Below, piece by piece: positions 3,610 to 18,111 of a DNA stretch of 18,381 bases. Position numbers and translations under genes: made by a program. Location of the stretch: UHGV virus genome UHGV-1767510. One strand, written 5' to 3'. This DNA comes from a virus. Below the pieces are notes generated by a model that saw only the letters and a list, made by a program, of their open reading frames with translations, had not been told where the DNA came from and did not search any database. Numbering within the stretch: the stretch's first letter is position 1; the number at the start of each line of letters is the position of its first letter.

Positions 3610-3742
3610 TCTTTGGGACTCCTGGCTGATTAAGTATGTCGATAAGGCGTTTCCATCCGTCACGTAATTTACGGGTGATTCGTTCAAGTAAAGATTCGGA
3701 AGGGCAGCCAGCAACAGGCCACCCTGCAATGGCATATTGCAT
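3602..3742 (-). CDS. cIII: CIII protein (FtsH inhibitor, stabilises CII)
   Basis: MQYAIAGWPVAGCPSESLLERITRKLRDGWKRLIDILNQPGVPKNG is essentially the lambda CIII sequence. ATG at 3740-3742 is preceded by AAGGAG; the upstream part of the 80-aa track ORF is not coding. Confidence 0.8.
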   Translation of the reverse strand: MQYAIAGWPVAGCPSESLLERITRKLRDGWKRLIDILNQPGVPKNG

Positions 3743-3802
3743 GGTGTGCTCCTTATTTATACATAACGAAAAACGCCTCGAGTGAAGCGTTATTGGTATG
3801 CA

Positions 3803-5585: not shown

Positions 5586-6518
5586 TTAAAGAACCGATTT
5601 AACAAGATGGTTTTTACGGTACAGACCTATGCGATCATTGTGAATCTCAGTAGTCTCCACTAAAAGAGAAACAATCTGTCCGACCTTGTGTTTTTTTTGT
5701 ATTAAATCTAGCATTTCAATCGGATAGGAAGCCTTTAAATGTTCACCACCAACATCAAGCTCCAGCTTCCCATATTTGGATAGAACGACCAGTTCGCCTG
5801 TAACCGTTTCAGTAATGGGAGGGGATGAAATGGTTGATGTAAGTCTACTCACCAAGTACTTAATTTTATTGGAGTCAATAGTTGCCACCTTGGTGCCATT
5901 ACTAAATGGACCGGTCCAACTTGCATCAAATGTTAAGTTGTGTTTATCGCATTCCTCTACGATTCTCTTAAGGCTTACAGTGGAATTGTATCCAATTTCA
6001 GCGACGTGATTCATGAAGTTGTTGTCGTCATCGCTTAACAACAAATCGAATATGCCTTTTACAGCCTTGCTGGGTACTGTTTCTACTAATTCTGCTATTC
6101 CTGTAGAGAAGGTGACGCCCAATTTTGTAGACCCAGGGGATAAATCAGCCAGCCTGAGGTTTAAGGAGCTTTTCACGTCGTAGGGAACTTTTTTTGAGTC
6201 CTTGCCTGAGGCAATTTTGTGTGTTGCTCTTTGTATTAGCGCTGCAAGATTTGTTGAAATAGCCCCAAGCAGCTCTAAAGGAATAGAGCCAAAGTCAACC
6301 TCAGAGCCTTTCAGCCGCAGCTCAAAAAAATCGATAAGTGGGTGCCGACTATCTTGCTTTAATTTTTCGGCCTTCAAATCGCTCAGATGAGAATCCATGG
6401 AGCGATAAAGAAGCATGTCAGCAAAGGACCTGGTTTTGTTTTGCTTCATTGCATCGACTTCTTTTTGAATGAAATCAATGCGTTTATCGCAATTTTTAAA
6501 CATTGATTTATCATTCAT
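5586..6518 (-). CDS. Unknown 310-aa protein, second gene of the rex-slot cassette (candidate effector or partner)
   Basis: Long ORF translationally coupled to the upstream gene (ATGA overlap at 6515-6518). No motif I can assign (no Walker A, HEPN, HNH or PD-(D/E)xK signatures seen by eye). Confidence 0.7.
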   Translation of the reverse strand: MNDKSMFKNCDKRIDFIQKEVDAMKQNKTRSFADMLLYRSMDSHLSDLKAEKLKQDSRHPLIDFFELRLKGSEVDFGSIPLELLGAISTNLAALIQRATHKIASGKDSKKVPYDVKSSLNLRLADLSPGSTKLGVTFSTGIAELVETVPSKAVKGIFDLLLSDDDNNFMNHVAEIGYNSTVSLKRIVEECDKHNLTFDASWTGPFSNGTKVATIDSNKIKYLVSRLTSTISSPPITETVTGELVVLSKYGKLELDVGGEHLKASYPIEMLDLIQKKHKVGQIVSLLVETTEIHNDRIGLYRKNHLVKSVL

Positions 6519-6994
6519 AAAAAAATCCTCACTAACCCTTTCGGGTTTTCACTGCGATCAAAACCAAACCAACCGCGCCAGTAGCTACGCCAGTACTCAT
6601 AATCATAGTTAGGGTCATCTAAATTCTTCATGAGTAGTAGGACATCAATTTTGTAGTTTTGTTTGATGTAGTTTCGGTCAAGCAAATTATCGACGCGGCC
6701 CCGAAGCATGACAGGTATTGAGTTTATATTGCTATAGTCACATACCAACAAAATATCAATATCATCAGGCTCTGGTTTAGACGTGGTGTATGAACCATCA
6801 ACCCATATTTCTGTAAAACAGCCATATTGAGCAGATAATTCTCGAATAGATTCGAGTAGCTGTATAAAATTACAGTATAGCATGCCTCGCCTGGATGATG
6901 AAGGAAAGCAATCGACACAATACGATTTTAATCCAGCTTCATCCATGTCATGGAACCCTGGCTCAAACAGGGGTGGGTAATTAATTTTATCCAT
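6515..6994 (-). CDS. Putative minimal nucleotidyltransferase-fold protein (159 aa), first gene of the rex-slot cassette
   Basis: Motif WVDGSYTTSKPEPDDIDILLV fits the Pol-beta superfamily NTase signature hG[GS]-x9-Dh[DE]h. RBS AAGG 6 nt before the ATG. Lies immediately downstream of cI, where lambda has rexA. Confidence 0.65.
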   Translation of the reverse strand: MDKINYPPLFEPGFHDMDEAGLKSYCVDCFPSSSRRGMLYCNFIQLLESIRELSAQYGCFTEIWVDGSYTTSKPEPDDIDILLVCDYSNINSIPVMLRGRVDNLLDRNYIKQNYKIDVLLLMKNLDDPNYDYEYWRSYWRGWFGFDRSENPKGLVRIFL

Positions 6995-7143: not shown

Positions 7144-7860
<717 letters not shown>

Positions 7861-7957: not shown

Positions 7958-8158
7958 ATGGAACAACGCATAACCCTGAAAGATTATGCAATACGCTTTG
8001 GGCAAACCAAGACGGCTAAAGATCTCGGCGTATATCAAAGCGCGATTAACAAGGCCATTCATGCAGGCCGAAAGATTTTTTTAACTATAAACGCTGATGG
8101 AAGCGTTTATGCGGAAGAAATAAAGCCCTTCCCAAGTAACAAAAAAACAACTGCATAA
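7958..8158 (+). CDS. cro: Cro repressor
   Basis: 66-aa protein [66 protein letters not shown], essentially lambda Cro; SD AAGGAGG upstream. Confidence 0.9.
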
Positions 8159-8295: not shown

Positions 8296-8592
8296 ATGAC
8301 ACAAGCAAGTTACAGCAAGCCAACACAGCGAGAAATTGATCGCGCAGAAACAGATTTACTCATCAACCTGTCAACGCTTACCCAGCGCGGTCTGGCAAAG
8401 ATGATTGGCTGTCATGAATCGAAGATAAGCAGAACGGACTGGAGATTTATTGCTTCGGTCTTGTGTGCTTTTGGAATGGCATCAGACATCAGTCCGATTA
8501 GCAGGGCTTTTAAGTATGCGCTTGATGAAATCACAAAGAAAAAATCCCCGGCTGCCACCGAGGATTTTAAGCAAATTGATATGCAATTCTGA
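8296..8592 (+). CDS. cII: CII-like transcriptional activator
   Basis: 98 aa in the cII position after cro/nutR. C-terminal ...[18 protein letters not shown] parallels lambda CII ...KKRPAATERSEQIQMEF; the N-terminal part is divergent. Confidence 0.7.
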
Positions 8593-8624: not shown

Positions 8625-8771
8625 ATGACAAAACAACTCAGTCCTTACCAGGACAAAATTCACAAACACATACTACGTGATCGCTTCCTGTCCAGCTTCA
8701 AGCAGCCTGGTCGATTCCGGGCTGAGTTGGAAAAAGTGAAGCTGATGCAGAAGGAGAAAGGTCATGAGTAA
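8625..8771 (+). CDS. Small hypothetical protein (48 aa) between cII and O
   Basis: ATG at 8625 preceded by AGGAGT; [48 protein letters not shown]; overlaps the O start by 8 nt. Too short for the ORF track. Confidence 0.35.
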
Positions 8772-9624
8772 TCTTGCAACCGTAACACATTTAAGGCCTT
8801 CACAACGGCCTGTGGAGCGTCGTGTGGCAGAAGTTGAAGATGGTTATACCCGTCTTGCAAATGCCCTGTATGAAGAGCTTATCGGCGCAGATTTAACAAA
8901 AAATCAGAGTAAGGTTGCCCACGCCATATGCCGTAAAACATACGGATACGGTAAAAAGATGGATCGCATCTCTGATAGTCAGTTAGCTCAAATTACCAGG
9001 CTGCCAAGACAGAAGGTAAACAAGGCCAAGAATGAGCTTATCGCGATGAAGGTAATCCTTCGCGAAGGCCAGCAAATCGGGCCTAACAAGAACATCGAGG
9101 AATGGCAAATCGAAGGGTGTCACTACTCTGGTGATAATGTCACTGCATTGGTGACAAAAAGTGTCACCAAAACGGTGACAGCGCTGTCACCAAAACAGGG
9201 ACACACAAAAGAAACTATTACAAAAGAAAAAAGAAATAATAAAAACACTATGTCCGAAAGTGTTCGGACGGAGTGTGAAAAATCATCTGACCGTCACGAA
9301 GAAACCGACAAGGCATTCGAGGAAATATTCTGGTGTGCAGGCATGCGGAAAGCCGGGAAGAAAAACGCAGCTTCGGCATTCAGAACACAGTTCAGGGAAT
9401 GGCGTAAAACTACCAGGGGTACGGCAAGCGAGTTTGCCACGATGCTGGCAGAAGACATCGCATGCAGGAATGGTAAGCAGTTCGGATTCGACAGGTTGTT
9501 ACCATCGAGCTACCTGAACGGTCAACGCTGGAACGACGAAAAGCCAGAAACCATTCAACCACAATCCAAACCATCATCCGCAATCACCGTATCGAAAACT
9601 GGCTACGTGTTTTTCGACAGGTGA
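8764..9624 (+). CDS. O: Replication initiator protein O (lambda O family)
   Basis: 286 aa. N-terminal region resembles lambda O (...[56 protein letters not shown]...). Iteron-type origin lies inside the gene, as in lambda. Confidence 0.85.
9131..9250. repeat. Replication origin (ori-lambda-like): iterons followed by an AT-rich segment
   Basis: Three to four repeated inverted-repeat units of the form tgtcacc-aaaac-ggtgaca (about 9148-9204) inside the O gene, then an A-rich tract (9205-9250). Analogous to the four 19-bp O-binding iterons of lambda. Confidence 0.6.
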
Positions 9625-9627
9625 ACC

Positions 9628-9735
9628 ATGAAATCAAAAATCAAATCGCTACTGGTCGCTGGTTATAACCACGGCTGGTTAAGTATTTCGTTTGTCGATT
9701 TCTGGTTTAAAAATCTCAATCTGAGGGAATCATGA
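9628..9735 (+). CDS. Small hypothetical ORF (35 aa) coupled to the primase-helicase gene
   Basis: ATG at 9628 with AGGTGA upstream; ends in an ATGA overlap with the start of the 968-aa gene. MKSKIKSLLVAGYNHGWLSISFVDFWFKNLNLRES. Could equally be non-coding leader. Confidence 0.2.
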   Translation: MKSKIKSLLVAGYNHGWLSISFVDFWFKNLNLRES

Positions 9736-12638
9736 CGCCAAGTGAACTTAGCGACCTGCTTTGGGCGCAGGTTGACAGGGTGGCTCCGCACCTGTTGCCA
9801 AACGGCAAGAAAGAGGGGCATGAGTGGGTTGCCGGTAACATCAACGGTGACAAGGGAAACAGCCTTAAGGTCAACCTTAGCGGCAAGAAAAAATGGGCTG
9901 ATTTCGCCGAGGGAGACGGCGGTGACATGCTTGATTTGTGGATGGCATGTCGTGGAATTAACCTGCATCAGGCTATGCAGGAAGCGAAAGCATTTCTCGG
10001 TATCAAGGATGACGATCACCATTTCGATGCCAGACGTGAGAAAAAATTCTCCAGACCTGATCGCAAGAAAATCGCCCGCTACGTTACCAGAACAGAATCC
10101 CATCTTGAGTACCTGCAATCGCGTGGCATATCGCCAGAAATCGTAAAGCGCTACGAGGTTGTCAGCGGCAAGGTGTGGAATGGAGAGCGGGAACTGGATG
10201 CTCTGGTGATTCCGTACAAACGCGATGGTGAGTTGTTGCAGGTCAAGCGAATCAGCACTGAGCGCCCGGACGGGAAGAAAGTCATTATGGCAGAAGGTGA
10301 TTGCGAACCTTGCCTGTTCGGATGGCAGGCTCTGGACGCTGGCGTGAGGGCGGTTGTGCTTTGCGAAGGCGAAATTGATTGTATGAGCTATGCGCAATAC
10401 GGCATCTCGGCGTTATCCGTGCCGTTTGGTGGCGGGAAAGGCGCTAAGCAACAGTGGATTGAGTTTGAGTATCACAACCTCGACAGGTTTGAGGAAATAT
10501 TCATCTCGATGGACGTTGATGATGTTGGTCGTGAAGCCGCAAGGGAAATCGCAAGCCGACTCGGTGAACATCGTTGCCGTCTTGTTACTCTGCCGTACAA
10601 AGACATCAACGAATGCCTGATGAACGGTGTTACCGAGGATGAAATCTGGCAGTACATCGGCACGGCATCCTACTTCGATCCTGAAGAACTCTACAGCGCG
10701 CGAGAGTTTTACCAGGACACTATCAACGCTTTCTACGGCAAGCAGCAGTATCTGTTTAATCCACCGTGGGAATCTCTGGCAGATAAATTCCAGTTCCGTG
10801 AGGCAGAGTTGACGCTGGTCAATGGTGTGAACGGTCACGGAAAAGCCTGTCCACTTGATGAACCAATTCTGCTCGCTAATGGTGAATGGACTACTCACGG
10901 GGATGTAAAAATTGGCGATCAGGTGGCATCAGTAGACGGCAATCCGTCAACTGTCACCGGGATATTCCCGCAGGGTGTTAGAGATGTTTACCGAGTCACA
11001 TTTGAAGATGGTCGTTATGTTGATTGCGCAGGCGATCACCTATGGGAGGTCACTAGTCGTGGATTCACGAAAGGCGAGAAGCGCCGCGTGATAGACACCT
11101 TCGAGCTGAAACGGTTGAGTGAAACGAAGAGGCACAAAAATGGCGTCAGGATACCCGAAATAACTGGTGACTTTGGCGACCACTCAGAGCCATTAGCATG
11201 GGTTATCGGCTCCCTTCTCGGGGATGGTAGTCTTAGCAATGGGAGCGTGAAGTTTTCAAACGTCGAGCCATACATGATCGAGCGTATGAAGGCTGAACTG
11301 CCTGATTACAACTTTTCTGGAGATGGTAAGGACTGGCTGATATCAACGGCGCGTGGTCAGGTAAATCCACTCATGGAGACCCTGCGAGTTTATGGACTAA
11401 TGGGGTGCACAGCAAAAAACAAATTCATCCCTCGTGTGTTTTTTTCCGCAAACAAATCAACGCGTATAGGAATGCTGTGTGGTCTGCTTGAAACGGATGG
11501 TTATGTCGAGAAGGATGGAACGCTTGTTTTTTCCTCAGCAAGTGAAGAACTGCGTAATGGGGTTGTTCAACTGGTTAACTCACTCGGCGGTTCATGCCGG
11601 ACGCGAGTTAAAACTGGCGTGACATACACATACAAGGGCGATAAGCGGCATGGGATGGATTCATATGAGGCAAGGATACGACTGACAAGGGAAATCAGGG
11701 AGGCCATCCGTTCACCACGACTCAATGGCAGATTAACTGCGCATCGATTCGAGGGGTGTGGGGTATTCGTCAGGAATGTTGAAAAAATCGGCAATGCAGA
11801 ATGCTTGTGTATCATGGTCGATCACCCTCGCCACCTGTATGTAACCAGAGGATATGTGGCAACGCATAACACCGAGGTTGTCGGGCATATGGCGCTTGAG
11901 GCAATGCGTCAGGGTGTGAAGACGTGCATCGCGTCACTTGAGCTGAAGCCTGGTATTCTCCTTAAGCGCCTTACCCGTCAGGCGACGTGCTGCAAGATGC
12001 CGCCAGTGCTGGAAATTGACTCTGCATTTAAATTTTATGACGAAAGACTTTGGGTGTTTGGCCTGACCGGAACGGCGAAAGCCGACAGGCTGATCGAAAT
12101 ATTCGACTACGCTCGCCGCCGATACGGGATCCAGTTATTCATCATCGACAGCCTGATGAAATGTGGCATAGGCGACGATGACTATAACGGGCAGAAGGCG
12201 TTTGTTGACTCGATTTGCGACTTCAAAAACAAAACAAACTCCCACGTCATTCTCGTTACTCACTCGCGAAAAGGAGACAGCGAAGAAAAACCAACCGGGA
12301 AAATGGACGTAAAAGGCTCTGGAGCGATAACAGACCTGACAGACAACCTTTTCATCATCTGGCGTAACAAGGCTCGCGAGAGAGCGTTACAGAGAGTTCA
12401 GAGTGGTGAAAAGATGTCAGAGAAGGACGAACAGCTACTGGCATCTCCGGCATCTGTTTTGATGCTTGAAAAACAACGTAACGGCGAAGGTTGGGAAGGT
12501 GGTGTCCCGTTGTTCCTTGACGAGCAATCGCACCAGTTCCTGCAACTTGAATCAGGATCGCCATATAGCTACATCGCCAATATGCCGAAATCGGAATATG
12601 ACGAGGCGTGGCGACAGGAAAACGTGACGGAGTATTAA
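9732..12638 (+). CDS. Bifunctional primase-helicase (Toprim primase domain + DnaB/gp4-like helicase domain) interrupted by an intein
   Basis: 968 aa. N-terminal Toprim-like motif (VVLCEGEIDCMSY). Walker A GVNGHGK[A]-T split by the insert; Walker B-like LFIIDSL and VILVTHSRKG downstream. Occupies the slot of lambda P (helicase loader), following O. Confidence 0.85.
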   Translation: MTPSELSDLLWAQVDRVAPHLLPNGKKEGHEWVAGNINGDKGNSLKVNLSGKKKWADFAEGDGGDMLDLWMACRGINLHQAMQEAKAFLGIKDDDHHFDARREKKFSRPDRKKIARYVTRTESHLEYLQSRGISPEIVKRYEVVSGKVWNGERELDALVIPYKRDGELLQVKRISTERPDGKKVIMAEGDCEPCLFGWQALDAGVRAVVLCEGEIDCMSYAQYGISALSVPFGGGKGAKQQWIEFEYHNLDRFEEIFISMDVDDVGREAAREIASRLGEHRCRLVTLPYKDINECLMNGVTEDEIWQYIGTASYFDPEELYSAREFYQDTINAFYGKQQYLFNPPWESLADKFQFREAELTLVNGVNGHGKACPLDEPILLANGEWTTHGDVKIGDQVASVDGNPSTVTGIFPQGVRDVYRVTFEDGRYVDCAGDHLWEVTSRGFTKGEKRRVIDTFELKRLSETKRHKNGVRIPEITGDFGDHSEPLAWVIGSLLGDGSLSNGSVKFSNVEPYMIERMKAELPDYNFSGDGKDWLISTARGQVNPLMETLRVYGLMGCTAKNKFIPRVFFSANKSTRIGMLCGLLETDGYVEKDGTLVFSSASEELRNGVVQLVNSLGGSCRTRVKTGVTYTYKGDKRHGMDSYEARIRLTREIREAIRSPRLNGRLTAHRFEGCGVFVRNVEKIGNAECLCIMVDHPRHLYVTRGYVATHNTEVVGHMALEAMRQGVKTCIASLELKPGILLKRLTRQATCCKMPPVLEIDSAFKFYDERLWVFGLTGTAKADRLIEIFDYARRRYGIQLFIIDSLMKCGIGDDDYNGQKAFVDSICDFKNKTNSHVILVTHSRKGDSEEKPTGKMDVKGSGAITDLTDNLFIIWRNKARERALQRVQSGEKMSEKDEQLLASPASVLMLEKQRNGEGWEGGVPLFLDEQSHQFLQLESGSPYSYIANMPKSEYDEAWRQENVTEY
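10848..11870 (+). mobile_element. Intein with LAGLIDADG homing-endonuclease domain, inserted in the helicase P-loop
   Basis: In-frame 341-aa insert starting CPLDEPILLANGEW... and ending ...YVATHN followed by Thr (+1 nucleophile). Two LAGLIDADG-like motifs (VIGSLLGDGSL; LCGLLETDGYV). Removing it restores a P-loop. The N-terminal boundary could be one residue earlier (Ala, 10845), which would give a perfect GVNGHGKT Walker A. Confidence 0.7.
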
Positions 12639-12720: not shown

Positions 12721-13332
12721 ATGCGAATAAAAAAACCAATTGATCACGATGAGCTTCTGTCAACATTATCATATGACTCAGAAACAGGAATATTTAAATG
12801 GCTAAAAACAAATTCAGTAGTAAGAGTAAAAGGTAGTATTGCTGGAGGTGTTAGTGGTGGTTATATATGCATTAGCATAAATAATGTTTTGTATTATGCG
12901 CATAGGCTTGCTTGGTTCTATGTATACAAAAAATGGCCTCCTAAGTTTATTGATCATGTAAATGGGAACAGACTTGACAATAGGATTTCAAATCTAAGAC
13001 TGGCAACAGAGGAGCAGAATGCAAGAAACATTGTAGGTAATAGGTTAAACACATCCGGTGCGATTGGAGTGTCTTGGGATAAGACAACTGGCAGGTGGAA
13101 GTCTTATGTTGGTTATAAAAATAAGACAATATCGTTAGGGTATTTCGATAGCAAAGAAGATGCAGCATTCATAGCAGCACTAGCAAGAAAGAAACTATAT
13201 GGAACTTATGCGAGTAAAGCACTTAATTGCGAGCATGAGCTTTTATCTCAATTTAATAATGATGAGGATAAACTTGCGGAATATCTTAAGGAAAAATCTA
13301 AAAGGACTCGAAAGCGTGTTAAAAAAAGATAA
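12721..13332 (+). CDS. Free-standing HNH homing endonuclease with AP2-like DNA-binding domain
   Basis: HNH motif ...YYAHRLAWFYVYKKWPPKFIDHVNGNRLDNRISNLRLATEEQNARN, plus AP2-like GVSWDKTTGRWKSYVGYKNKTISLGYFDSKEDAA. The gene and its flanks are visibly AT-rich compared with neighbours (not computed). Confidence 0.8.
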   Translation: MRIKKPIDHDELLSTLSYDSETGIFKWLKTNSVVRVKGSIAGGVSGGYICISINNVLYYAHRLAWFYVYKKWPPKFIDHVNGNRLDNRISNLRLATEEQNARNIVGNRLNTSGAIGVSWDKTTGRWKSYVGYKNKTISLGYFDSKEDAAFIAALARKKLYGTYASKALNCEHELLSQFNNDEDKLAEYLKEKSKRTRKRVKKR

Positions 13333-17955: not shown

Positions 17956-18030
17956 GGGTCAGTCGTATAAAGGTCATTACGGAAGGCTGTTAACCTTCTT
18001 ATCGTGGTTCGAGTCCACGCTGTCCCGCCA
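17956..18030 (+). tRNA. tRNA-like gene, anticodon GUU (Asn) by manual folding; possibly degenerate
   Basis: Manual cloverleaf: acceptor gggtcag/ctgtccc with one T-T mismatch, D-arm with GG, perfect anticodon stem gaagg/ccttc with loop CTGTTAA, T-arm cgtgg-TTCGAGT-ccacg, discriminator G and encoded CCA. Confidence 0.45.
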
Positions 18031-18035
18031 AACAT

Positions 18036-18111
18036 GCTGGTTTAGCTCCAATGGTAGAGCAGTCGCCTTGTAAGCGAATGGGTAGCGGTTCAAGTCCGTT
18101 AACCAGCACCA
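18036..18111 (+). tRNA. tRNA gene, anticodon UGU (Thr) by manual folding
   Basis: Manual cloverleaf: perfect 7-bp acceptor gctggtt/aaccagc, D-arm gctc-CAATGGTA-gagc, anticodon loop CTTGTAA (stem with one G-A mismatch), T-arm agcgg-TTCAAGT-ccgtt, discriminator A and encoded CCA. Confidence 0.7.

What the first reader, a model, noticed from the sequence alone, without database searches (positions are those of the whole stretch)
10845..11870. Intein with LAGLIDADG endonuclease inserted in the Walker A (P-loop) of the replicative primase-helicase
The 968-aa replication protein has a continuous in-frame 341-aa insert between GVNGHGK(A) and TEVVGH. The insert begins CPLDEP, ends ...THN followed by Thr, and carries two LAGLIDADG-type motifs (LLGDGSL; GLLETDGYV). 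Excising it reconstitutes a P-loop. The P-loop is a classic intein insertion hotspot. The N-terminal boundary is ambiguous: a Cys-1 intein (10848) leaves GHGKAT, whereas an Ala-1 intein (10845) gives a perfect GxxxxGKT. This bears on the splicing mechanism (class 1 versus non-canonical). An intein in a lambdoid prophage replication gene also means replication depends on protein splicing.
Basis: partly seen in the sequence, partly recalled or inferred. Interest (0 to 1): 0.7.

Follow-up and report, generated by a model that had tools for sequence, protein, structure and literature searches.

The report
Class 3 intein splitting phage helicase P-loop
The replication primase-helicase gene of this lambda-like E. 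coli prophage is interrupted, inside its ATP-binding loop, by a self-splicing protein element (an intein) that carries its own homing nuclease. It is real, but it is a known element of a well-studied kind.

Summary
ORF 9732..12638 encodes a 968-aa T7-gp4-like primase-helicase with an in-frame insert at exactly 10845..11870 (1026 bp, 342 codons). Intein-less alleles of the same gene, 98-99% identical in the flanks, fix the borders. Phage mEp043, ES18 and about 209 complete E. coli genomes read GVNGHGK|TEVVGH at the empty site. The intein therefore starts with Ala, not Cys, and ends ...THN, followed by Thr+1. The intein carries the full class 3 signature: a non-nucleophilic residue 1, block B His65 and Trp67, block F Cys322, block G Thr340-His341-Asn342, and Thr+1. 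These residues are invariant or nearly so in 142 distant relatives, most of them in the GK|T of DnaB P-loops. The best solved relatives by sequence are the class 3 mycobacterial DnaB inteins. The AlphaFold model (pLDDT 95.8) matches PI-SceI-type intein-endonucleases. Both LAGLIDADG acidic residues are intact, and substitutions are mostly synonymous (22 versus 3). The same intein, 98% identical, was reported in gene P of Stx phage phi24B in 2012, so it is already known. The small additions are exact borders, the class 3 assignment, an unusual Cys2, and a linked silent change at the +1 codon.

The parts
9732..12638 (+). Precursor gene: a T7-gp4-like bifunctional primase-helicase (968 aa with the intein, 626 aa after splicing). 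It takes the place of lambda gene P, downstream of an O-like initiator gene.
   Evidence: ORF. Toprim_2 at aa 209-296. The in-silico spliced protein aligns without a break to T7 gp4 (5ikn, E 2.7e-23) and Twinkle. The O-like gene at 8764..9624 is shown.
9732..10844 (+). N-extein (aa 1-371), ending GVNGHGK, the first part of Walker A.
   Evidence: Empty-site alignment.
10845..11870 (+). Intein, 342 aa, from Ala1 (GCC) to Asn342 (AAC).
   Evidence: A 1026-bp gap against the mEp043 allele that cannot be slid. The same border applies in ES18. AlphaFold model with pLDDT 95.8. GC3 is 0.47 against 0.58 in the exteins.
11037..11045 (+). Block B His65-Leu66-Trp67. His is position B10 and Trp is B12, the 'W' of the WCT triplet.
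   Evidence: Aligned to His65/Trp67 of Msm DnaBi1 (residue roles from PMC6195587). Both residues are invariant, 142 of 142, in relatives.
11157..11744 (+). LAGLIDADG homing-endonuclease domain, approximately intein aa 105-300. Motif 1 is LLGDGSL at 11214..11234 (Asp127). Motif 2 is LLETDGYV at 11484..11507 (Asp218).
   Evidence: Pfam LAGLIDADG_3, E 2e-7, above its cut-off. PI-SceI and PI-PkoII sequence hits. Foldseek matches PI-SceI with TM 0.73-0.77. Asp127 is kept in 120 of 142 relatives and Asp218 in 140 of 142. The domain limits are taken from the model's secondary structure and are approximate.
11808..11810 (+). Block F Cys322 (position F4), the predicted class 3 nucleophile. A second cysteine, Cys320, lies at 11802..11804.
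   Evidence: Aligns with the catalytic Cys118 of the mycobacterial class 3 inteins. Invariant, 142 of 142.
11862..11870 (+). Block G Thr340 (G5, the 'T' of WCT), penultimate His341 and terminal Asn342.
   Evidence: Read directly from the sequence. Kept in 140, 141 and 142 of 142 relatives respectively.
11871..11873 (+). Thr+1 (ACC). It is the C-extein nucleophile and, after splicing, the Walker A Thr of GxxxxGKT. The codon is ACC in intein-bearing alleles and ACG in empty alleles.
   Evidence: It aligns with Ser319 of the T7 gp4 GKS motif.
11871..12638 (+). C-extein (aa 714-968 plus stop), the remainder of the SF4 helicase/ATPase domain.
   Evidence: AAA_25 and DnaB_C matches span the junction only after in-silico splicing.

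Best explanation
This is a class 3 intein with a LAGLIDADG homing endonuclease nested inside it. It sits between Lys and Thr of the Walker A motif (GVNGHGK|T) of the prophage's own T7-gp4-type primase-helicase. The proposed mechanism is inferred from the class 3 family. The 968-aa precursor cannot bind or hydrolyse NTP properly, because 342 residues split its P-loop. Block F Cys322 attacks the Lys371-Ala372 peptide bond and forms a thioester-branched intermediate. The N-extein is then passed to the hydroxyl of Thr714 (+1). Asn713 cyclises and releases the intein. An O-to-N acyl shift joins Lys371 to Thr714, giving an intact 626-aa helicase with GVNGHGKT. The freed intein (or the precursor) acts as a double-motif LAGLIDADG nuclease. 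During co-infection or phage-prophage encounters it cuts intein-less alleles at the empty site, and repair then copies the intein in (homing). Shown here: exact borders, presence/absence polymorphism, all catalytic residues, the fold, and purifying selection. Inferred only: that splicing happens, that it goes through Cys322, and that the nuclease is active.
For: Borders and empty site:
- mEp043 and ES18 read GHGK|TEVV, and the gap is exactly 10845..11870.
- In 5426 complete E. coli genomes, 79 carry the gene with the intein and 209 carry the empty site.

Class 3 signature:
- The intein has Ala1, His65, Trp67, Cys322, Thr340, His341, Asn342 and Thr+1.
- These positions align with Ala1/His65/Trp67/Cys118/Thr137/His138/Asn139 of the crystallised class 3 Msm and Mch DnaB inteins (E 6e-10 to 2e-7; roles from PMC6195587).
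- In 142 full-length relatives drawn from 50%-identity clusters, His, Trp, Cys and Asn are 142/142 and Thr is 140/142. Residue 1 is non-nucleophilic in about 97% (Ala 101). The +1 residue is Thr or Ser in 141. Residues -2/-1 are Gly-Lys in 128 and 125.
- The class definition is in PMC2807308 and PMC3196547.

Fold:
- The AlphaFold model has pLDDT 95.8 and pTM 0.93.
- Foldseek matches whole intein-endonucleases (PI-SceI TM 0.73-0.77) and class 3 mini-inteins (TM 0.74-0.79 normalised to the target).

Constraint:
- Against the Klebsiella phage phiKp_30 allele the intein shows 22 synonymous and 3 non-synonymous differences, spread over both the Hint and nuclease parts.

Host protein:
- In-silico splicing restores a continuous alignment to T7 gp4 across GMGKS.
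- It also lifts AAA_25 above its Pfam cut-off.

Viability:
- Isolated phages (phi24B, Min27, phiKp_30) carry the intein allele as their only helicase gene in this module.
Against: - No experiment on splicing or nuclease activity exists for this element. PMC3430580 says so explicitly.
- Pfam Hom_end_hint scores below its gathering cut-off (23.5 against 32.1).
- Block B position 7 is Ala, which is rare among relatives (3 of 142).
- Cys at position 2 is found in none of the 142 relatives, so a role for it cannot be read from the family.
- Phage viability would not require splicing if host DnaB could substitute. I did not test this.
Confidence: 0.9

Rival explanations
1. A class 1 intein that starts at Cys373 (10848). 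Cys performs the usual N-to-S acyl shift, and the spliced helicase keeps the Ala, giving GHGKAT.
For: A Cys lies immediately after the Ala. A few relatives with the WCT triplet do begin with Cys (4 of 142 at position 1).
Against: - All empty alleles read GHGK|T with no Ala, and the missing block is 342 codons, not 341.
- GKAT would put Ala where T7 gp4 has the Walker A Ser.
- In the family alignment the Cys occupies position 2, which is Gln or Leu in 136 of 142 relatives. The Ala occupies position 1 (Ala in 101 of 142).
Confidence: 0.03
2. A class 2 (KlbA-like) Ala1 intein. Thr+1 attacks the N-terminal splice junction directly, without a block F branched intermediate.
For: Ala1 and a hydroxyl +1 nucleophile are shared with class 2 (PMC3196547).
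Against: - Class 2 inteins lack the WCT triplet and have so far been found only in KlbA genes (PMC3196547).
- Here Trp B12, Cys F4 and Thr G5 are all present and invariant in the family.
- The nearest solved relatives are proven class 3 inteins.
Confidence: 0.03
3. A decayed, non-splicing insert (an intein pseudogene, or a domesticated domain). The precursor would be inactive or would work with the insert left in place.
For: Such a case exists: the Arthrobacter Arth_1007 intein (PMC3196547). Splicing of this element has never been tested (PMC3430580).
Against: - Every catalytic residue is intact. Arth_1007, by contrast, lacks His B10 and Cys F4.
- The frame is open over 342 codons.
- Synonymous changes outnumber non-synonymous ones 22 to 3.
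- Viable phage isolates carry the intein allele.
- The insert splits the P-loop between Lys and Thr, which is hard to reconcile with ATPase activity while it remains in place (an inference; PMC6195587 argues the same for DnaBi1).
Confidence: 0.05

Closest known systems
Intein in replication gene P of Stx2 phage vB_EcoP_24B (phi24B), also present in Min27 (Smith et al. 2012, PMC3430580)
   Same: It is the same element in the same gene at the same site. The 2907-bp gene is 98.1% identical. The intein begins ACPL and ends THN|T.
   Different: The paper gives the insert as residues 372-702, names only a HintN domain, and does not assign a splicing class or mention the nuclease motifs. The window's allele differs at a few residues and sits in a different prophage mosaic; only 37-50% of the 18-kb window is shared with these phages.
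Mycobacterial class 3 DnaB inteins: Msm DnaBi1 (PDB 6bs8) and Mch DnaB-1 (6rix, 6riy)
   Same: They are inserted in the P-loop of an SF4 replicative helicase, directly before the Ser/Thr that later coordinates Mg2+. They share Ala1, block B His and Trp, block F Cys, and THN at the end. They are the best PDB sequence hits (PMC6195587).
   Different: They are mini-inteins of 139-145 aa that have lost the nuclease. Their host is cellular DnaB, not a phage primase-helicase. Cys48, the redox partner in DnaBi1, is Val here (alignment). Block B position 7 is Asp there and Ala here.
Mycobacteriophage Bethlehem DnaB intein, the class 3 prototype (Tori et al. 2010, PMC2807308)
   Same: It is a phage helicase intein of almost the same size (341 aa against 342). 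It has Cys320/Thr339/His340/Asn341/Thr+1, against Cys322/Thr340/His341/Asn342/Thr+1 here, and a non-nucleophilic first residue.
   Different: Its splicing through the block F cysteine was shown biochemically. Here nothing has been tested. I did not align the two sequences directly because the Bethlehem sequence was not retrieved.
Intein in the DnaB-like helicase of another set of Stx2a phages (for example LC616047, Stx2_6804)
   Same: It is 49.6% identical over the full length. It lies in the P-loop (ARPGMGK|AMAL...IVTHN|TE), shares the block F string ECLCIMV, and has two LAGLIDADG motifs.
   Different: The host protein is a 797-aa DnaB-type helicase rather than a Toprim primase-helicase. Residue 2 is Met, not Cys.
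PI-SceI (yeast VMA1 intein) and archaeal VMA and PI-PfuI inteins
   Same: They have the same two-part build: a Hint splicing domain with a double-motif LAGLIDADG nuclease inserted in it. They are the best whole-chain structural matches (TM 0.73-0.77).
   Different: They are class 1 inteins (Cys1, block F Asp). PI-SceI has an extra DNA-recognition region and is about 110 aa longer. Sequence identity is 14-17%.

Membership tests
Intein (protein-splicing element) | An in-frame insert that is absent from otherwise near-identical homologues, at a conserved site of the host protein. | tested here: met
   A 1026-bp insert is present in the window and absent in mEp043, ES18 and 209 E. coli genomes, with 98-99% flank identity. 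The site is Walker A GK|T.
Intein (protein-splicing element) | Hint fold with splicing blocks A, B, F and G. | tested here: met
   Both the N- and C-terminal halves match solved inteins. The model has pLDDT 95.8 and matches intein structures. Pfam Hom_end_hint alone is below its cut-off.
Intein (protein-splicing element) | Self-catalysed excision with ligation of the exteins. | not testable with these tools
   This needs expression followed by western blot or mass spectrometry. PMC3430580 states that it has not been determined.
Class 3 intein | No Cys, Ser or Thr nucleophile at intein position 1. | tested here: met
   Ala1 is fixed by the empty-site alleles. Position 1 is Ala in 101 of 142 relatives and Cys in only 4.
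Class 3 intein | WCT triplet: Trp at B12, Cys at F4, Thr at G5. | tested here: met
   Trp67, Cys322 and Thr340 align to Trp67, Cys118 and Thr137 of Msm DnaBi1. They are kept in 142, 142 and 140 of 142 relatives. Definition in PMC2807308 and PMC3196547.
Class 3 intein | Block B His (B10), a C-terminal Asn, and Ser or Thr at +1. | tested here: met
   His65, His341-Asn342 and Thr+1 are present.
Class 3 intein | Splicing through a block F cysteine branched intermediate. | not testable with these tools
   This is a biochemical criterion. It needs C322 mutants and trapping of the intermediate.
LAGLIDADG homing endonuclease (double-motif, intein-borne) | Two LAGLIDADG helices, each ending in a catalytic acidic residue, within an alpha-beta-beta-alpha-beta-beta-alpha pseudo-dimer fold. 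| tested here: met
   LLGDGSL carries Asp127 and LLETDGYV carries Asp218. LAGLIDADG_3 is above its cut-off. The fold matches PI-SceI, I-DmoI and I-Tsp061I.
LAGLIDADG homing endonuclease (double-motif, intein-borne) | Site-specific cleavage of the intein-less allele. | not testable with these tools
   The only indirect evidence is the presence/absence polymorphism and purifying selection on the nuclease part, with 12 synonymous and 2 non-synonymous changes.
SF4 primase-helicase (T7 gp4 / Twinkle type), the host protein | An N-terminal Toprim primase domain followed by a RecA-like helicase domain with Walker A GxxxxGK[ST]. | tested here: met
   Toprim_2 scores E 8e-12. The spliced sequence aligns over aa 192-539 to T7 gp4 (E 2.7e-23), with GHGKT opposite GMGKS.

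The most novel reading that the evidence does not exclude
Splicing of this cysteine-dependent intein may act as a redox gate on replication of this family of lambdoid phages, which includes Stx2a phages. The catalytic Cys322 has several cysteines that are close in sequence to the catalytic blocks: Cys320, Cys61, and Cys2. Cys2 lies next to the scissile bond and occurs in none of 142 relatives. Oxidants might trap Cys322 in a disulfide, as happens with Cys48-Cys118 in Mycobacterium smegmatis DnaBi1 (PMC6195587). That would delay helicase maturation, and so phage genome amplification, until reducing conditions return. Nothing here tests this. The specific Cys48 partner of DnaBi1 is not conserved (it is Val here), and I could not measure distances in the model.
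Probability: 0.12. Interest if true: 0.6.

Novelty: already known. Interest (0 to 1): 0.25.

Why it matters
The practical value lies in annotation and interpretation. This gene is labelled only 'toprim domain-containing protein' or 'replication protein P' in about 1,500 database entries. The mature helicase is in fact 626 aa, and it depends on a class 3 splicing reaction through an internal cysteine. The element is carried by clinically relevant Stx2a phages (phi24B, Min27), so replication of these phages depends on protein splicing. If splicing proved to be redox-sensitive, that dependence would gain interest. For intein biology, the region offers a natural set of filled and empty alleles in near-identical genes, which is convenient for homing experiments. 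It adds no new principle.

Tried and rejected
- The Cys-1 boundary was rejected on the empty-site alleles.
- Class 2 was rejected because the WCT triplet is present.
- The 'conserved non-splicing domain' reading was rejected because about 72% of E. coli alleles lack the segment.
- The word-indexed protein search with the intein returned only 5 hits. The exhaustive representative search was needed to obtain the family.
- My first attempt to read the phmmer Stockholm alignment by match columns failed. I replaced it with MAFFT on extracted segments.
- The phi24B loci (L002, L004) were not copied to the Python sandbox. The synonymous/non-synonymous count therefore used phiKp_30 only, and phi24B was compared through the alignment tools.
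- Tori and Perler 2011 (PMC3133030) is not held, and the supplementary tables of PMC2807308 are not held.
- I could therefore not confirm that InBase lists this very intein as class 3. From my own memory, the likely entries are 'EP-Min27 Primase' and 'ShP-Sfv-5 Primase'. The main text of PMC2807308 says only that the partial Shigella phage 'ShP-Sfv-2a ... [quoted passage not shown]
- Literature searches for experimental work on this intein found nothing beyond PMC3430580.
Full report
**1. The observation**

The window holds one continuous ORF at 9732..12638 on the + strand, 968 codons long. Its product reads ...LVNGVNGHGK ACPLDEPILL... ...HLYVTRGYVATHN TEVVGHMALE....

On the unspliced protein, Pfam finds these domains:
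- Toprim_2 at aa 209-296.
- LAGLIDADG_3 at aa 579-632, above its cut-off.
- A sub-threshold Hom_end_hint at aa 379-424.
- Only the C-terminal fragment of an AAA_25 ATPase domain.

**2. Borders**

The gene occurs in two forms in public genomes.
- In 5426 complete E. coli genomes, 296 carry it. Of these, 79 match over the full 2907 bp. The rest match in two pieces spanning 1881 bp, which is 1026 bp shorter.
- Among phages, the long form is found in the Stx2a phages phi24B, Min27, F403/F451 and Xuzhou21, and in Klebsiella phage phiKp_30.
- The short form is found in mEp043, Sf101, APC_JM3.2 and ES18.

Aligning the window gene with the mEp043 allele gives a single gap at window 10845..11870. The empty allele reads GVNGHGK|TEVVGH. 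The flanking bases do not allow the gap to be slid by even one base. ES18, only 86% identical at the DNA level, has the same empty site.

A 56-nt probe of the empty junction matches 209 E. coli genomes over its full length, 188 of them exactly.

The insert is therefore 342 codons, from Ala372 (GCC) to Asn713 (AAC), followed by Thr714. The alternative '341 aa, Cys-1' reading is wrong, because it would leave an Ala that no empty allele has.

**3. What it is**

*Sequence relatives.*
- phmmer of the insert against the PDB puts the mycobacterial DnaB inteins first: 6rix and 6riy (M. chimaera DnaB-1) and 6bs8 (M. smegmatis DnaBi1), with E from 6e-10 to 2e-7. Separate matches cover the N-terminal and C-terminal Hint halves.
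- The gp41-1 intein comes next. PI-SceI and PI-PkoII match the middle part.
- An exhaustive search of 1.84 billion cluster representatives gives 3021 proteins at E <= 1e-30. Most are about 800 aa with the match starting near residue 210.
- The flanking residues of those proteins show them to be DnaB helicases with the insert in ARPxMGK|.

*Structure.*
- An AlphaFold model built on 40 aligned sequences has mean pLDDT 95.8 and pTM 0.93.
- Foldseek against the PDB returns whole intein-endonucleases first: PI-SceI with TM 0.73-0.77, then TliVMA and PI-PfuI.
- The class 3 mini-inteins follow (6bs8, 6rix; TM 0.74-0.79 normalised to the target), then free LAGLIDADG enzymes such as I-DmoI and I-Tsp061I.

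The anatomy is a Hint splicing domain (about aa 1-104 and 301-342 of the intein) with a double-motif LAGLIDADG nuclease nested inside it.

**4. Splicing class**

Class 3 inteins are defined by three features (PMC2807308; PMC3196547):
- No Cys, Ser or Thr at position 1.
- A Trp-Cys-Thr triplet at block B position 12, block F position 4 and block G position 5.
- Usually Ser or Thr at +1.

The block F cysteine attacks the N-terminal junction and forms a class-specific branched intermediate.

In the M. smegmatis DnaBi1 crystal structure these residues are Ala1, His65, Trp67, Cys118, Thr137, His138 and Asn139. The intein sits in the DnaB P-loop just before the Mg-coordinating Ser (PMC6195587).

In the window's intein, the residues that align with these are Ala1, His65, Trp67, Cys322, Thr340, His341, Asn342 and Thr+1.

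I extracted 142 full-length intein segments from the representative hits and aligned them. The counts out of 142 are:

| Position | Residues found |
|---|---|
| His65 | 142 |
| Trp67 | 142 |
| Cys322 | 142 |
| Thr340 | 140 |
| His341 | 141 |
| Asn342 | 142 |
| +1 | Thr 130, Ser 11 |
| Position 1 | Ala 101, Glu 13, Pro 9, Gly 6, Cys 4 |
| -2 | Gly 128 |
| -1 | Lys 125 |

The element therefore meets every sequence criterion of class 3. It is not class 1, because it has no N-terminal nucleophile. It is not class 2, because it has the WCT triplet.

Two local peculiarities stand out:
- Position 2 is Cys here and in the phi24B and phiKp_30 alleles, but in none of the 142 relatives, where it is Gln in 112 and Leu in 24.
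- Block B position 7 is Ala, found in only 3 of 142.

**5. Is it functional?**

Several lines point to a working intein:
- All catalytic residues are intact and the frame is open.
- Against the phiKp_30 allele, the intein carries 22 synonymous and 3 non-synonymous differences. The Hint parts have 10 and 1, and the nuclease part has 12 and 2. Both activities therefore appear to be under purifying selection.
- Both LAGLIDADG acidic residues are present: Asp127 (kept in 120 of 142 relatives) and Asp218 (140 of 142).
- Phage isolates carry the intein allele.
- The insert has a lower GC3 (0.47) than the exteins (0.58), as expected for an invader.

Removing the intein in silico restores a continuous alignment to T7 gp4 (5ikn, E 2.7e-23) and to Twinkle. 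GHGKT lies opposite the gp4 Walker A GMGKS. It also raises AAA_25 above its Pfam cut-off and brings in DnaB_C.

Thr714 is therefore both the splicing nucleophile and the future Walker A threonine, as described for DnaBi1. Splicing, the route through Cys322 and nuclease activity all remain inferences.

**6. A small population detail**

The three intein-bearing alleles I examined have ACC at the +1 codon. Both empty alleles have ACG.

- In the E. coli genomes, the ACG empty-site probe hits 209 genomes, 188 of them exactly.
- The ACC version has no exact full-length hit. Its best full-length hits are the same genomes at 98.2%.
- The ACC probe also gives 79 extra partial hits, equal to the number of intein-bearing genomes.

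The silent G/C difference next to the insertion point is thus linked to intein presence. This fits a single invasion with co-conversion of the flank, and few or no precise losses. It could also bear on nuclease target recognition. I did not test this.

**7. Context**

The window is the early region of a lambdoid prophage:
- cIII thermoregulator RNA at 3697..3755 (-).
- cI-like repressor at 7144..7857 (-).
- cro at 7958..8158.
- cII at 8296..8592.
- O-like initiator at 8764..9624.
- The primase-helicase, in the place of lambda P.
- The nin region, followed by two tRNAs.

The exact 968-aa protein is in NCBI as 'toprim domain-containing protein [Escherichia coli]'. Its 90% cluster has 1494 members from E. 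coli, Shigella and Salmonella. None of the names listed mentions an intein.

**8. Comparison with what is known, and novelty**

Smith et al. [quoted passage not shown] They noted orthologues in a Shigella flexneri prophage and in Min27, and stated that function was untested. That gene is 98.1% identical to the one here.

Tori et al. [quoted passage not shown] They also note that most class 3 inteins sit in ATPase P-loops of helicases.

The element is therefore already known, and it belongs to a well-characterised class. This analysis adds:
- The exact borders (372-713).
- The explicit class 3 assignment, with family-wide residue counts.
- The intact nuclease.
- The Cys2 peculiarity.
- The linked +1 codon change.

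**9. Verdict**

The open question is resolved in favour of Ala-1 and class 3. Interest is low to moderate, because a specialist would not be surprised.

The most novel reading still open is redox gating of phage replication through the cysteine-dependent splicing step. I rate it unlikely (about 0.12) and it is untested.

Noticed in passing
window 12721..13332 (+): A free-standing HNH endonuclease ORF (203 aa, phrog_99, E 4e-72) lies directly downstream of the intein-bearing gene. phi24B has no such ORF at this place. The same module follows other replication genes in HK022, PA28 and several Stx phages. This region therefore holds a second homing-type element.
   Followed up: partly
L006 (LC616047.1, Stx2a phage Stx2_6804) 898..3291: A different replication module, a 797-aa DnaB-like helicase present in 49 Stx2a phage records, carries a 49.6%-identical class 3 intein in its own P-loop (ARPGMGK|AMAL...IVTHN|TE). 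It shares the block F string ECLCIMV. Two unrelated helicase modules of Stx2a phages thus hold sister inteins at the equivalent site.
   Followed up: partly
window 11871..11873: The +1 codon is ACC in intein-bearing alleles and ACG in all empty alleles seen. No complete E. coli genome has an exact empty site with ACC. This is a silent change linked to intein presence.
   Followed up: yes
window 10848..10850 (intein Cys2): Cys at intein position 2 is shared by the phi24B and phiKp_30 alleles but is absent from all 142 distant relatives, which have Gln or Leu. Its role is unknown.
   Followed up: partly
window 3697..3755 (-): There is a full-length match to the lambda cIII thermoregulator RNA element (Rfam RF01804, 88.5 bits).
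   Followed up: no
window 5586..6994 (-): Two ORFs of unknown function (310 aa, phrog_6603; 159 aa, phrog_9194) lie between the N region and the cI repressor. phi24B carries a Ser/Thr kinase and a resolvase-like gene at that place. This is an accessory-gene slot that may be worth a look.
   Followed up: no
window 17956..18111 (+): tRNA-Asn (GTT) and tRNA-Thr (TGT) genes lie near the right end, downstream of the nin/Q region. This is the position where Stx phages carry a different tRNA set upstream of stx.
   Followed up: no
90% cluster of the window protein: Many Shigella flexneri members of the cluster are partial (274-727 aa). This suggests the gene is often truncated or disrupted in Shigella prophages. 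It is consistent with the partial 'ShP-Sfv-2a ... Primase' inteins mentioned in PMC2807308.
   Followed up: no
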